Positions 1 through 1,903 of a DNA stretch of 1,903 nt are shown piece by piece. The notes beneath the pieces are model-generated. The model was given only the letters and a program-made list of their open reading frames with translations. It searched no databases and was not told the origin of the DNA. The stretch's first letter is position 1. Each line of letters starts with the position of its first letter. Origin of the DNA: Escherichia coli (GTDB lineage Bacteria; Pseudomonadota; Gammaproteobacteria; Enterobacterales; Enterobacteriaceae); the NCBI RefSeq assembly GCF_003334255.1, contig NZ_QOWU01000143.1; one strand, 5' to 3'. The position numbers and the translations under genes were made by a program.

Positions 1-65
1 AGTTATCGTGAGAGTAATTCATCGGCACGTTAAATCATATCAGGCGTAATACCACAACCCTTAAG

Positions 66-299
66 TTAGCGCTTATGGGACTGCATCCCCCGCGGTCCCT
101 CCATCAGAGCCCGGTATCGACGGTAATCCTCCTCCGTGACACCCCACTGAGCGGCCTGTTGCTGCAGCGCCTGTGTGGTGGTACTGACCTGCGAAGAGGC
201 CTGCGTGCGTGTGCCCTCGGGCGCACTCTCCCGTACAGCAGCCACCGTCTGCAGGGAAATGAGCAGCATGAGCACCGGTGACAGATTCTTCATTTTCAT
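66..299 (-). CDS. Small Sec-secreted protein (77 aa precursor, ~56 aa mature), function unknown
   Basis: ORF 66..299 (-). ATG 299-297 lies 4 nt after the upstream stop (TGA, 306-304); SD GGAG is 7 nt upstream within the previous gene. N-terminus MKMKNLSPVLMLLISLQTVAA|V looks like a Sec signal peptide with an AXA-type cleavage site (VAA). Mature part is Gln/Thr/Ser-rich, then a charged C-terminus (GVTEEDYRRYRALMEG). Short length lowers confidence. Confidence 0.6.
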   Translation of the reverse strand: MKMKNLSPVLMLLISLQTVAAVRESAPEGTRTQASSQVSTTTQALQQQAAQWGVTEEDYRRYRALMEGPRGMQSHKR

Positions 300-303
300 T
301 TCA

Positions 304-1071
304 TCACTCCACCATGACCCGGACCTGACGTCCGTTCACCCGGAACGAGGCTTCTCCCCGTCCGGCACGCTCAAGCATCCAGCCGGCCGTGCTCTCCCCT
401 TCACCCAGCAGCGTCACATCTGAAAGACGGGTAAATCCACGGGGAGCCACCGCAGCATATGTGCGTCCGCCACGCTGCTCCGTGCCTGTCAGCACAAACG
501 GTGCGCTGCGGCTGATAACTGAAATGCCGGAAGAGCCCTTTTTCTGGCGTGGCGTGACCGCCGGTGTGCTCTTCACCGTGCCCGTTCCTTTCGCAGATGA
601 CGGTGATACCGGGGTGAATGGCGCCTTCTCCAGCTTCTCCAGTCGCAGGTCATACGCACGAAGCGTTTCTCCCTGCTGCGCCAGCGTGGCCTGCAGTGAT
701 GCCAGGCTGGCGGCCATCTGACCAGTGCGTGCATGCTCTTCCTCCGTCAGTACAGGTCGTTGCTCCAGCAATGTCAGTCGCTCCGTCACGCTTTTCAGCT
801 GTTTTTTGGTTTCAGCCAGCCGGGACCTGAGCGGTTCAAGCTCACTTCCCGACAACGCGAGAGCATCTGAATACGTTTTCATTTGCCCCTCCAGTGCGGC
901 AATGCGTTCATCCTGCTCCCCGCTGTAACGATAGAGGCCGCAAACCGCCAGAATGGTCGCAACCAGAACGGTCAGTACAAATCCCACGGAAAGCATGGGT
1001 GACACACAGGTCCACCCATCAAGAGGAGATGAATGCACTGACGGTAATGTCTTCTGTTTTTTTTCACTCAT
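304..1071 (-). CDS. Bitopic membrane protein (255 aa): short cytoplasmic N-terminus, one TM helix, long coiled-coil region, Ser/Thr/Pro-rich linker, small C-terminal domain. Family unassigned.
   Basis: ORF 304..1071 (-). Start ATG 1071-1069 overlaps the upstream stop (ATGA); SD GGAG lies 8 nt upstream inside the lipoprotein gene. Lys-rich N-terminus MSEKKQK, then a single hydrophobic segment PMLSVGFVLTVLVATILAVCGLY (about residues 25-47, nt ~931-999). Residues ~52-140 are Leu/Ala/Glu/Lys/Gln-rich with heptad-like spacing, ending in LRLEKLEK. Linker PFTPVSPSSAKGTGTVKSTPAVTPRQKKGSSG, then a ~70-aa C-terminal domain. Confidence 0.8.
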   Translation of the reverse strand: MSEKKQKTLPSVHSSPLDGWTCVSPMLSVGFVLTVLVATILAVCGLYRYSGEQDERIAALEGQMKTYSDALALSGSELEPLRSRLAETKKQLKSVTERLTLLEQRPVLTEEEHARTGQMAASLASLQATLAQQGETLRAYDLRLEKLEKAPFTPVSPSSAKGTGTVKSTPAVTPRQKKGSSGISVISRSAPFVLTGTEQRGGRTYAAVAPRGFTRLSDVTLLGEGESTAGWMLERAGRGEASFRVNGRQVRVMVE

Positions 1072-1646
1072 TTTTTAAGCTCCGCTCCTGCGCCCCTGAC
1101 ACCGGCCGGTACCGGCGCCAGCTGGCCCGGCGGCAACTGATAACCTTCCCGCAGGCTGTGACAGACAACCCGCTGCACATCATCAACTTCAAGTTGCCAC
1201 GCCGGACCGGCCATCATCTGCAGGGCGGTACGCAACCTGAGCGGCCCCGTCTGATACTGCACTGCCGGCAACGCCTGACGATAAAGCACCCCGTTGGCCG
1301 GTCCGGTGGCACAGAGCGTGTAGCCCGACTGTTTCAGGGCATAACGCATCGCATCTGCCACCGTCGGCTTCAGGGATGCCGGAATACGGATGTCAATCAC
1401 CTGGGAAAGGGGATCCCGCTGTACCGCATCCGGATGAGTGTTAACCAGCAGATAGCGGTCATAACGCACCACCTCGGGCACAGTCGTCCCAGCGTACATA
1501 TCAGGGCTGGCCGGACGGACATTATTGCTGACCGTCACCGACGGTACCGGAACAGCCGCATCCCGCTGCAGCAGTTTTTGCTGCCCCTGACAGCCAGTCA
1601 GAAGTACGCAGGCGGACAGCACGGAAAGAAGAAGGGATGTTTTCAT
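1068..1646 (-). CDS. Predicted lipoprotein (192 aa), probably outer-membrane sorted; first gene of a three-gene envelope operon. A conjugation/pilus-associated role (PilL/TraV/VirB7/DotD-like) is hypothesis only.
   Basis: ORF 1068..1646 (-). ATG at 1646-1644 is preceded by SD GAGGT (1656-1660) with 9-nt spacing. N-terminus MKTSLLLSVLSACVLLTG-C has a positive n-region, hydrophobic core and lipobox L-T-G-C with Cys19 (codon 1590-1592); Gln at +2, so no Asp inner-membrane retention signal. Pro/Gly/Ala-rich C-terminal tail (QLPPGQLAPVPAGVRGAGAELKK). Composition is protein-like, unlike the R/H/C-rich antisense frame. Stop TGA overlaps the next start (ATGA at 1068-1071). Confidence 0.8.
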   Translation of the reverse strand: MKTSLLLSVLSACVLLTGCQGQQKLLQRDAAVPVPSVTVSNNVRPASPDMYAGTTVPEVVRYDRYLLVNTHPDAVQRDPLSQVIDIRIPASLKPTVADAMRYALKQSGYTLCATGPANGVLYRQALPAVQYQTGPLRLRTALQMMAGPAWQLEVDDVQRVVCHSLREGYQLPPGQLAPVPAGVRGAGAELKK

Positions 1647-1740
1647 CAGGAAGTTACCTCTGCGGTGAAGTGATAAAGTCAGAGGTCAATTTGCAGAAGA
1701 AGTCCAGACCGGCTCAATGAACAACTGATTTCCGGTTGAC
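1647..1740 (-). promoter_or_regulatory. Promoter and 5' leader region of the lipoprotein operon (exact -35/-10 uncertain)
   Basis: Only non-coding interval between the upstream terminator and the lipoprotein start. Candidate sigma70-like hexamers on the minus strand: TTGAGC (1717-1712), 17-bp spacer, GCAAAT (1694-1689). An alternative -35-like TTGACC sits at 1689-1684 but has no good -10 partner. Matches are weak; the TSS cannot be fixed from sequence. Confidence 0.35.
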
Positions 1741-1768
1741 AAAAAAAACGCCTGCACAAGGCAGGCGT
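1741..1768 (-). terminator. Rho-independent (intrinsic) terminator for the upstream minus-strand gene
   Basis: On minus-strand RNA: GC-rich 7-bp stem (1761-1767 pairs with 1749-1755; GCAGGCG/CGCCUGC), 5-nt loop (1756-1760), then immediately U8 (complement of the A8 run at 1741-1748). The plus-strand side has no downstream U-tract, so it is unidirectional. Confidence 0.6.
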
Positions 1769-1799: not shown

Positions 1800-1903
1800 T
1801 CAGTCCTGATTTAGCGCACCATTACGCTGCACCGGGACGTAATCCAGAGCCTGCAGCAACTGCTCATCTGTCAGATCCAGAAAATCTTTGATTTCCTCCA
1901 GAG
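1800..1903 (-). CDS. 3' end of an upstream CDS (partial; 5' end outside the window), product unknown
   Basis: Minus-strand frame is open from the window edge (1903) to TGA at 1802-1800 and encodes ...LEEIKDFLDLTDEQLLQALDYVPVQRNGALNQD*. An intrinsic terminator follows ~32 nt downstream on the same strand. Only 34 codons are visible and there is no start in the window, so the coding call rests on open frame plus terminator placement. Confidence 0.4.
   Translation of the reverse strand, partial: LEEIKDFLDLTDEQLLQALDYVPVQRNGALNQD

What the first reader, a model, noticed from the sequence alone, without database searches (positions are those of the whole stretch)
1068..1646. Lipoprotein with outer-membrane sorting signal and Pro/Gly/Ala-rich C-terminal tail
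Lipobox LLTG-C with Cys19 and Gln at +2 predicts a Lol-sorted outer-membrane lipoprotein. The mature protein has a Pro/Val/Ser-rich N-terminal tether (AAVPVPSVTVSNNVRPASP), a ~120-aa globular region and a flexible C-terminal tail (QLPPGQLAPVPAGVRGAGAELKK). A tether plus a compact domain is how VirB7/DotD/TraV/PilL-type lipoproteins dock secretin-like or core-complex partners. That role is inference, not a recognised match.
Basis: partly seen in the sequence, partly recalled or inferred. Interest (0 to 1): 0.45.

Follow-up and report, generated by a model that had tools for sequence, protein, structure and literature searches.

The report
ICE conjugation lipoprotein (PilL-N / IceB7 type)

Summary
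The ORF is real: minus strand, 1646 to 1068, 192 aa, lipobox LLTG|C with Cys19 and Gln at +2. It scores 128 bits against NCBIfam TIGR03748 (conj_PilL; cutoff 64). RefSeq annotates an identical stretch in E. coli as "PilL N-terminal domain-containing protein".

It is the first gene of the transfer module of an SPI-7/PFGI-1/ICEclc-type integrative conjugative element (ICE). The gene order is PilL, a 255-aa protein, TIGR03759, a transglycosylase, then TraD and the VirB8/9/10/4-like genes.

The ICEclc counterpart, IceB7 (conj_PilL, SPII signal, 206 aa), is needed for transfer. Its envelope foci depend on IceB9 and Orf62755 (PMC10018362).

The protein lacks the TcpQ domain of the long PilL2 forms that head type IVb pilus clusters. 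It has no detectable similarity to the namesake R64 PilL, and this ICE carries no pilus cluster. It is therefore most likely a T4SS outer-membrane-complex lipoprotein, not a pilus protein.

The family is already known, so interest is low.

The parts
1068..1646 (-). Complete gene for a 192-aa PilL-N-domain lipoprotein (TIGR03748 conj_PilL; IceB7/DotD-like), stop codon included
   Evidence: ORF. TIGR03748 at 128 bits against a cutoff of 64.15. 100% identical DNA in E. coli STEC2018-553, annotated 'PilL N-terminal domain-containing protein' WP_032308781.1.
1593..1646 (-). Signal peptide, residues 1-18 (MKTSLLLSVLSACVLLTG), ending in the lipobox L-T-G
   Evidence: Read from the sequence. A lipobox occurs in 116 of the 150 best family representatives.
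1590..1592 (-). Cys19 codon (TGT), the predicted lipid-attachment residue; the next residue (+2) is Gln
   Evidence: Read from the sequence. No Asp at +2 in 116 representatives.
1470..1589 (-). Disordered Pro/Val/Ser/Ala-rich tether, residues 20-59
   Evidence: No secondary structure and pLDDT about 61-67. The family-wide tether has a median of 31.5 aa (range 21-70) and is P/A/S/T-rich.
1149..1469 (-). Conserved PilL-N domain, residues 60-166. It opens with the near-invariant VVRYxRY motif, continues as an N0/STN-like core, and contains the Cys112/Cys162 pair.
   Evidence: TIGR03748 matches residues 60-162. pLDDT is 88-98 for residues 71-170. N0/STN fold matches. Conservation.
1071..1148 (-). 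Flexible Pro/Gly/Ala-rich C-terminal tail, residues 167-192. It aligns with the start of the linker of long PilL2 forms.
   Evidence: pLDDT about 61-63. Alignment to pKLC102 PilL2 residues about 165-199. Family tail median 24.5 aa.
1657..1660 (-). GAGG Shine-Dalgarno sequence 10 nt upstream of the ATG
   Evidence: Read from the sequence.
1748..1768 (-). Intrinsic-terminator-like hairpin followed by a run of T, ending the upstream gene. The PilL gene starts about 100 nt downstream, so it probably opens a new transcription unit.
   Evidence: 8-pair stem, 6 G-C pairs, tail TTTTTTTGTC.
304..1071 (-). Downstream, translationally coupled gene (ATGA overlap at 1068-1071) for a 255-aa protein: membrane anchor, long coiled coil, disordered linker, then a conserved ~65-aa beta domain
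   Evidence: ORF. Model. Conservation. It occupies the same position as ICEclc orf73029. It follows the PilL gene in every locus with the identical protein.
66..299 (-). 5' part (77 codons in the window ORF) of the TIGR03759 thioredoxin-like ICE gene, cut off by an IS421 insertion
   Evidence: TIGR03759 hit on residues 43-75 only. The intact gene is 240 aa in L001 and L006-L011. Junction alignment.
1..76 (.). Terminal 76 bases of an IS421 (IS4-like) element, including the start of its transposase gene

Best explanation
The gene encodes the outer-membrane lipoprotein of the conjugative type IV secretion system (MPF_G / GI-T4SS type) of an SPI-7/PFGI-1/ICEclc-family integrative conjugative element. 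It is the counterpart of ICEclc IceB7.

Proposed mechanism, step by step:
1. The precursor is exported. It is lipidated at Cys19 and cleaved by signal peptidase II. [quoted passage not shown] This is inferred from the motif and from the established E. coli sorting rule.
2. A disordered tether of about 40 residues lets the domain hang into the periplasm. The model shows this.
3. The domain of about 100 aa has the N0/STN fold, probably stabilised by a Cys112-Cys162 disulfide. It docks onto the outer-membrane core complex made of the ICE's VirB9-like (TIGR03749/DUF3438), VirB10-like (TIGR03752) and TIGR03751 lipoprotein components. DotD in Dot/Icm and the N0 domain of Xanthomonas VirB7 decorate their core complexes in the same way. 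The docking is inferred by analogy and from the ICEclc experiments.
4. Without this protein the machine does not assemble and the ICE does not transfer. This has been shown for ICEclc IceB7, not for this protein.

It is not a type IV pilus protein, despite the 'PilL2' label.
For: Family: TIGR03748 at 128 bits against a cutoff of 64.15.

Context:
- Identical DNA lies in a complete ICE in E. coli STEC2018-553. The order is PilL, a 255-aa protein, TIGR03759, a transglycosylase, TraD, TIGR03747, RAQPRD, TIGR03758/45/50, PFL_4703, TIGR03749, TIGR03752, TIGR03751 lipoprotein, then the VirB4-like ATPase. Upstream are SPI-7-type dnaB, parB, topoisomerase III and ssb.
- The same order is found in all six loci that carry the exact protein.
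- It is also found in distant short homologues from a metagenome contig, another genome and ICEHin1056.
- pKLC102 and ICEHin1056 are typed MPF_G.

Fold: N0/STN.

Experiments on the counterpart (PMC10018362):
- ICEclc Orf73676 is 206 aa, conj_PilL, with an SPII signal and STN/DotD structural similarity. It was named dotD/iceB7.
- Its in-frame deletion lowers transfer more than 100-fold, with partial complementation.
- IceB7-mCherry forms envelope foci that need iceB9 and orf62755 (TIGR03751).
- IceB4 foci need iceB7.

Further literature: PilL homologues of ICEHin1056, ICESb1 and PAPI-1 are among the genes listed as essential for conjugation in at least one of those elements (PMC3864950).

Conservation: Cys112 and Cys162 co-occur in 87 of 90 sequences, and 77 of 90 have exactly two Cys in the mature part.
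Against: - Nothing about this particular protein has been tested experimentally.
- Its identity to IceB7 itself was not measured, because that sequence was not retrievable here. Equivalence rests on shared family model, size, signal type and gene order.
- Outer-membrane localisation is a rule-based prediction.
- There is no solved structure of any MPF_G outer-membrane complex, so the docking partner is inferred.
- The same N0 fold is used by secretin partners (BfpG, TcpQ) and by TonB-dependent transducer signalling domains, so the fold alone does not fix the partner.
- In the window's own genome the neighbouring TIGR03759 gene is broken by IS421, so that copy of the ICE may no longer be transfer-proficient.
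Confidence: 0.8

Rival explanations
1. It is a type IVb pilus biogenesis lipoprotein, as the labels 'pilus assembly protein PilL' and 'type IV pilus protein PilL2' say. It would dock onto a PilN-type lipoprotein secretin, as BfpG and TcpQ do.
For: Database names carry this label. The protein is 44% identical over about 200 aa to the N-terminal half of pKLC102 PilL2, which heads a pilN-pilO-pilP-pilQ-... cluster. Its fold resembles BfpG, a type IVb secretin partner (PMC12531336).
Against: - The TcpQ domain (PF10671) of long PilL2 forms is absent.
- No pilM, secretin, pilO or ATPase genes lie next to it or anywhere in the ~70 kb examined around the ICE.
- Sampled short forms all head T4SS clusters (window family, ICEHin1056 and two others). 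Sampled long forms all head pilus clusters (pKLC102 and two others).
- R64 PilL, the namesake, neither hits TIGR03748 nor matches the family profile beyond the signal peptide. It shares only the C-terminal TcpQ-like part with PilL2.
Confidence: 0.07
2. It is a decayed remnant: the 5' half of a long pilL2 gene left behind when the pilus operon was deleted, with no function of its own.
For: The C-terminal tail aligns with the start of the long form's Pro/Ala linker and then stops. The window's copy of the ICE carries an IS421 insertion nearby.
Against: - Short forms are the majority class: about 100 of the 150 best representatives are 140-220 aa.
- They occur in ICEHin1056 and ICEclc, where the gene is listed or shown as needed for transfer.
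- The exact 192-aa sequence is recorded in 1658 assembly blocks.
- The gene is translationally coupled (ATGA overlap) to the next conserved gene.
- The domain, the lipobox and the Cys pair are all intact.
Confidence: 0.04
3. It is a trans-envelope signalling module. The STN-like domain of the outer-membrane lipoprotein would talk to the periplasmic C-terminal domain of the co-translated inner-membrane 255-aa protein, as FecA/PupB STN domains talk to FecR/PupR. That could, for example, report mating contact.
Against: - The 255-aa protein has only about 25 cytoplasmic residues and no anti-sigma or DNA-binding part.
- No sigma factor gene is adjacent.
- Deletion of the positional equivalent in ICEclc (orf73029) had no detectable effect on transfer, whereas iceB7 was needed.
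- ICEHin1056 and L013 lack the intervening gene altogether.
Confidence: 0.05

Closest known systems
IceB7 (Orf73676) of ICEclc, Pseudomonas (Daveri et al. 2023, PMC10018362)
   Same: Same family model (conj_PilL/TIGR03748), SPII lipoprotein signal and about 200 aa. It holds the same position as the gene that opens the T4SS region, followed by a ~216-255-aa protein of unknown function, TIGR03759 and a transglycosylase. STN/DotD-like predicted fold.
   Different: Different host and ICE lineage. Pairwise identity was not measured here. The function (transfer defect, foci dependent on IceB9 and Orf62755) is shown only for IceB7.
PilL2 of PAPI-1/pKLC102 (long form; 374 aa in pKLC102)
   Same: Lipobox, tether and N-terminal domain are homologous: 44% identity over about 200 aa, and both hit TIGR03748.
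   Different: The long form adds a Pro/Ala-rich linker and a C-terminal TcpQ domain (PF10671) and is followed by a type IVb pilus cluster. The window protein ends where that linker starts and is followed by T4SS genes.
DotD of the Legionella Dot/Icm T4SS (PDB 3ady, 6x62, 7mud)
   Different: No detectable sequence similarity. It belongs to a different T4SS type (MPF_I/T4BSS) with different partner proteins (DotC, DotH).
Xanthomonas citri VirB7 (PDB 3ov5, 2l4w, 6gyb)
   Different: No sequence similarity. Canonical VirB7 proteins are far smaller and lack the N0 domain. Whether the PilL-N tether binds the VirB9-like protein is unknown.
BfpG / TcpQ, N0-like partners of type IVb pilus secretins (PDB 9u5s; PMC12531336)
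   Different: According to the domain scheme in PMC12531336, BfpG has a signal peptide followed directly by its N0-like domain, with no lipidation region described. It binds a secretin. No secretin is encoded in this ICE, and PF10671 (TcpQ) does not match the window protein.
PilL of IncI1 plasmid R64 (the namesake)
   Same: Lipoprotein signal; first gene of its cluster.
   Different: It does not hit TIGR03748, and the profile comparison aligns only the signal peptide. It shares only the C-terminal TcpQ-like region with PilL2, a region the window protein lacks.

Membership tests
NCBIfam TIGR03748 conj_PilL (PFGI-1-class ICE PilL2 N-terminal domain) | Score above the curated cutoff of the family HMM | tested here: met
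   128 bits against a cutoff of 64.15, E = 1.4e-37, covering model positions 1-104 of 105.
NCBIfam TIGR03748 conj_PilL (PFGI-1-class ICE PilL2 N-terminal domain) | N-terminal lipoprotein signal ahead of the domain | tested here: met
   LLTG|C with Cys19. A lipobox occurs in 116 of the 150 best representatives. No dedicated predictor was available.
NCBIfam TIGR03748 conj_PilL (PFGI-1-class ICE PilL2 N-terminal domain) | Located in the conjugative transfer region of an SPI-7/PFGI-1/ICEclc-type ICE | tested here: met
   Flanked by TIGR03759, TraD, TIGR03747/45/50/58, TIGR03749/51/52, a VirB4-like ATPase and SPI-7-type DnaB.
IceB7 / DotD-type T4SS outer-membrane-complex lipoprotein (functional class) | Lipoprotein carrying an N0/STN-fold domain | tested here: met
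IceB7 / DotD-type T4SS outer-membrane-complex lipoprotein (functional class) | Same gene position as iceB7 in the ICE T4SS cluster | tested here: met
   Gene order compared with Table 1 of PMC10018362.
IceB7 / DotD-type T4SS outer-membrane-complex lipoprotein (functional class) | Required for conjugative transfer and physically part of the T4SS complex | not testable with these tools
   Shown only for ICEclc IceB7. Needs genetics and biochemistry on this ICE.
IceB7 / DotD-type T4SS outer-membrane-complex lipoprotein (functional class) | Outer-membrane localisation | not testable with these tools
   Predicted from Gln at +2, with no Asp at +2 in 116 relatives.
DotD family (sequence homology) | Detectable sequence similarity to DotD | tested here: not met
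   phmmer and a profile search against PDB sequences found no DotD hit even at E <= 10. The resemblance is in fold only.
Type IVb pilus PilL / TcpQ-domain secretin partner | TcpQ domain (PF10671) | tested here: not met
   No Pfam hit in the window protein. pKLC102 PilL2 has PF10671 at residues 292-370, and the long forms P0142 and P0143 carry it too.
Type IVb pilus PilL / TcpQ-domain secretin partner | Adjacent pilM, PilN secretin, pilO, pilP and ATPase genes | tested here: not met
   Absent next to the gene and in the ICE region examined. Present next to long forms.
Type IVb pilus PilL / TcpQ-domain secretin partner | Sequence similarity to R64 PilL | tested here: not met
   hhalign of family profile A1 against R64 PilL aligns only the signal peptide (probability 15.6%). 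R64 PilL has no TIGR03748 hit.
Secretins / TonB-dependent transducers (N0 or STN as the N-terminal domain of a larger outer-membrane protein) | Secretin or beta-barrel domain following the N0/STN domain | tested here: not met
   The protein ends 26 residues after the domain, and there is no Secretin or TonB-receptor Pfam hit.

The most novel reading that the evidence does not exclude
The short PilL-N lipoprotein and the co-translated 255-aa inner-membrane protein may form a secretin-less version of the N0:HR contact that links the outer and inner membranes in type II secretion (GspD-N0:GspC-HR) and type IVa pili (PilQ-N0:PilP). The 255-aa protein has a coiled coil and a small C-terminal beta domain. 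In this reading the family's invariant VVRYxRY motif, which lies just ahead of the N0 core in a segment the monomer model places with low confidence, is the strand-addition site for a partner. It would also mean that the MPF_G T4SS and type IVb pili share an interchangeable N0 adaptor module, since pKLC102 carries only the long PilL2 form.
Probability: 0.15. Interest if true: 0.4.

Novelty: already known. Interest (0 to 1): 0.12.

Why it matters
It matters little beyond correct annotation. The family has a curated model, the exact protein is in RefSeq, and a counterpart has been studied genetically and by microscopy.

The useful points are practical:
- The 'type IV pilus protein PilL2' label on short forms is misleading. 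These proteins lack the pilus-specific TcpQ domain and sit in T4SS clusters, so 'IceB7/DotD-like T4SS lipoprotein' describes them better.
- This ICE occurs in about 1% of complete E. coli genomes (54 of 5426), including Shiga-toxin-producing strains.
- No MPF_G outer-membrane complex has been solved. The domain boundaries, the conserved Cys pair and the RY motif given here could guide construct design.

Tried and rejected
1. Pfam on the 192-aa protein found nothing significant: DUF7782 at E = 0.032 and the MltD lipid-attachment motif at E = 1.7.

2. Sequence searches against PDB chains, with the single protein and with a 90-sequence profile, found only signal-peptide-level noise: TrwH, an apolipoprotein E entry and aspartate transcarbamoylase.

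3. I tested whether the 192-aa and 255-aa ORFs are a split long PilL2. BLASTP of pKLC102 PilL2 against the 255-aa protein gave nothing (E > 2), so this was rejected.

4. I tried to test the PilP/HR-like fold of the 255-aa protein's C-terminal domain.
- A profile of the domain against PDB sequences, Pfam and hhalign against R64 and pKLC102 PilP all gave nothing.
- The PilP-like idea therefore rests only on the statement in PMC10018362 about the positional equivalent, orf73029.

5. I tried to retrieve ICEclc IceB7 itself through cluster look-up of ten ~205-aa representatives. It was not among them, so no direct identity figure is given.

6. Rfam scan of the window found nothing above any gathering score.

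7. The sigma-70 promoter scan found no site.

8. The 259-aa ORF on the plus strand (894..1673), antisense to the gene, was set aside as a by-product. All homology support is for the minus-strand frame.

9. The invariance of Cys19 in alignment A1 is by construction, because sequences were selected for a lipobox. I do not count it as evidence. The unfiltered figure is 116 of 150.
Full report
**The observation.** The window holds a 192-codon ORF on the minus strand from 1646 (ATG) to 1068 (TGA). A GAGG sequence lies 10 nt upstream of the start. A longer ORF on the plus strand (894..1673) overlaps it but has no homology support.

**Family.** The protein scores 128 bits (E = 1.4e-37) against NCBIfam TIGR03748 'conj_PilL', whose curated cutoff is 64.15. 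The match covers residues 60-162. Pfam has no model that matches. Sequence searches against all PDB chains, with the protein and with a 90-sequence profile, give only signal-peptide noise. An exhaustive HMMER search of 1.84 billion cluster representatives finds 947 relatives at E <= 1e-3. Of the best 150, 116 have a lipobox in their first 45 residues, and none of those has Asp at +2. Most of the listed ones without a lipobox look N-terminally truncated or mis-started. Lengths fall into two classes: a majority of 140-260 aa and a minority of 350-500 aa.

**Genomic context.** Bases 77-1903 are 100% identical to the chromosome of E. coli STEC2018-553, and 54 of 5426 complete E. coli genomes hold at least 80% of the window. 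In that strain the gene (WP_032308781.1, 'PilL N-terminal domain-containing protein') opens the transfer module of an integrative conjugative element. The order is:
- PilL
- a 255-aa hypothetical protein
- TIGR03759
- a transglycosylase
- an 'integrating conjugative element protein' (DUF2859)
- a restriction endonuclease and a hypothetical protein
- TraD and TIGR03747
- RAQPRD, TIGR03758, TIGR03745 and TIGR03750
- PFL_4703, TIGR03749, TIGR03752 and the TIGR03751 lipoprotein
- the conjugative ATPase

Upstream lie ssb, topoisomerase III, ParB and an SPI-7-type DnaB. The exact 192-aa protein is recorded in 1658 blocks of public assemblies. All six loci read show the same neighbours.

**Short and long forms.** Distant short homologues sit in the same context: a 173-aa protein on a metagenome contig, a 194-aa protein in another genome, and the 209-aa lipoprotein of ICEHin1056. 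Long homologues carry a C-terminal TcpQ domain (PF10671) and are followed by PilM, a PilN-type secretin, PilO, an ATPase and the rest of a type IVb pilus cluster. In pKLC102 the secretin gene follows PilL2 directly. No pilus genes are present next to the window gene or in about 70 kb of the E. coli ICE region.

**Relation to proteins called PilL.**
- The window protein aligns with the first ~200 residues of pKLC102 PilL2 at 44% identity. It ends where that protein's Pro/Ala-rich linker begins.
- The downstream 255-aa protein is not the missing half.
- R64 PilL, from which the name derives, does not hit TIGR03748. It aligns with the family profile only over the signal peptide.
- R64 PilL shares only its C-terminal TcpQ-like region with PilL2, and the window protein lacks that region.
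- The 'type IV pilus protein' label on the short form is thus a transitive annotation that the sequence does not support.

**Structure.** With a 90-sequence alignment (A1), AlphaFold2 gives mean pLDDT 82. Residues 20-70 score about 61-67 with almost no secondary structure. Residues 71-170 score 88-98 and form a beta-alpha-beta / beta-alpha-beta-beta domain. Residues 171-192 score about 62.

Foldseek's best hit is DotD in the Dot/Icm outer-membrane complex (E = 8e-3, probability 0.98). BfpG is itself described as an N0-like partner that binds the outside of a type IVb secretin, and as similar to Xanthomonas VirB7 (PMC12531336).

**Conserved features.** Across the 90 short lipoproteins, Y65 and G108 are invariant. 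R64, L67, Q76, Q82, C112 and C162 are conserved in at least 90%. The two cysteines co-occur in 87 of 90 sequences, and 77 of 90 have exactly two cysteines in the mature part. The tether (median 31.5 aa, range 21-70) and the tail (median 24.5 aa, range 2-108) vary in length and are P/A/S/T-rich across the family. The VVRYxRY motif, the most conserved stretch, lies just upstream of the N0 core in a segment of lower model confidence.

**Published function of counterparts.** In ICEclc, Orf73676 is 206 aa, hits conj_PilL, has an SPII signal and shows STN/DotD structural similarity. It was named dotD/iceB7 (PMC10018362). The key results were:
- Its in-frame deletion lowered transfer more than 100-fold, with partial complementation.
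- IceB7-mCherry kept wild-type transfer and formed envelope foci.
- Those foci weakened without iceB9 (the VirB9 analogue) or orf62755 (the TIGR03751 lipoprotein).
- IceB4 foci depended on iceB7.
- The next gene, orf73029 (216 aa, no domain match, structural hit to PilP), was dispensable.
- The gene after that is TIGR03759, a thioredoxin-like protein.

This gene order is the same as in the window. The E. coli ICE encodes every proposed partner: TIGR03749, TIGR03751 and TIGR03752. PilL homologues of ICEHin1056, ICESb1 and PAPI-1 are among the thirteen genes reported as essential for conjugation in at least one of those elements (PMC3864950).

**Most likely mechanism.** The protein is exported, lipidated at Cys19 and sorted by Lol to the outer membrane. 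Its N0-like domain hangs on a tether of about 40 residues and docks on the VirB9/VirB10-like core complex of the ICE's MPF_G T4SS, where it is needed for assembly.
- Shown here: family membership, context, fold and motif conservation.
- Shown elsewhere for a family member: requirement for transfer and dependence of localisation on core components.
- Inferred: outer-membrane sorting, the disulfide and the docking partner.
- My confidence is 0.8.

**Rival explanations.** A pilus or secretin partner (0.07), a dead remnant of a long pilL2 (0.04) and an STN-type signalling pair with the 255-aa protein (0.05) are each contradicted by domain content, context or conservation, as set out in their entries.

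**Surroundings.** The 255-aa gene overlaps the PilL stop codon by ATGA (1068-1071), which suggests translational coupling. Its model shows a membrane anchor and about 125 residues of coiled coil (25-149), a disordered linker (152-185) and a confident beta domain (190-255). That beta domain is the best-conserved part. Whether it is PilP/HR-like could not be tested. The TIGR03759 gene is cut after about 74 codons by the end of an IS421 element that occupies bases 1-76, so the copy in the window's genome may be damaged. A terminator-like hairpin at 1768-1748 on the minus strand precedes the PilL gene.

**Verdict.** The feature belongs to an already known, curated family with an experimentally studied counterpart, so interest is low. 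The one refinement is that the short form should be read as a T4SS core-complex lipoprotein rather than a type IV pilus protein.

Noticed in passing
window 1-76 (junction at 76/77) and 66-299 (-): The left end of an IS421 (IS4-like) element, including the start of its transposase gene, is inserted into the TIGR03759 thioredoxin-like ICE gene. Only about 74 of its 240 codons remain. No complete E. coli genome in the collection has this junction, so this copy of the ICE may be transfer-impaired.
   Followed up: yes
window 304-1071 (-): A 255-aa protein is translationally coupled to PilL by an ATGA overlap. It has a membrane anchor, a long coiled coil, a disordered linker and a well-conserved ~65-aa C-terminal beta domain (PFVLTG..GW..F.V.G). 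It has no Pfam, NCBIfam or PDB sequence match. Relatives about 41% identical are annotated 'Tat pathway signal sequence' and carry an RRR motif that this copy lacks. It holds the position of ICEclc orf73029, which is reported as PilP-like and dispensable.
   Followed up: partly
window 1161-1163 and 1311-1313 (-), the codons of Cys162 and Cys112: The two cysteines of the mature protein co-occur in 87 of 90 family members, which suggests a disulfide. The ICE encodes TIGR03759, a family that PMC10018362 reports as thioredoxin-like. The PilL-N domain could be one of its substrates.
   Followed up: partly
L016 (R64) 44592-45659 and L002 (pKLC102) 8887-10011: R64 PilL, the protein the family is named after, lacks the 'PilL N-terminal domain' (TIGR03748). 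It shares only the C-terminal TcpQ-like domain with PAPI-1/pKLC102 PilL2, so 'PilL' covers two unrelated N-terminal halves. pKLC102 has only one TIGR03748 copy, the long form, which might serve both the pilus and the T4SS.
   Followed up: partly
window 1748-1768 (-) and 1800-1903 (-): A strong terminator-like hairpin (8-pair stem plus a T run) follows a small gene that RefSeq annotates as 'transposase' (122 aa, no Pfam hit in the loci read). An Rpn/Transposase_31 gene lies just beyond the window. The consensus scan found no sigma-70-like promoter between the terminator and the PilL start.
   Followed up: no
window 894-1673 (+): A 259-aa ORF runs antisense across the whole PilL gene and part of the next one. 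It has no homology support and is probably a by-product of the composition of the coding strand.
   Followed up: no
L004 (NZ_CP075665.1 2715000-2755000): In STEC2018-553 an iha (siderophore receptor/adhesin) pseudogene lies between the ICE's T4SS genes. Beyond the last T4SS gene (TraG) the region carries several restriction-modification and toxin-antitoxin systems.
   Followed up: no
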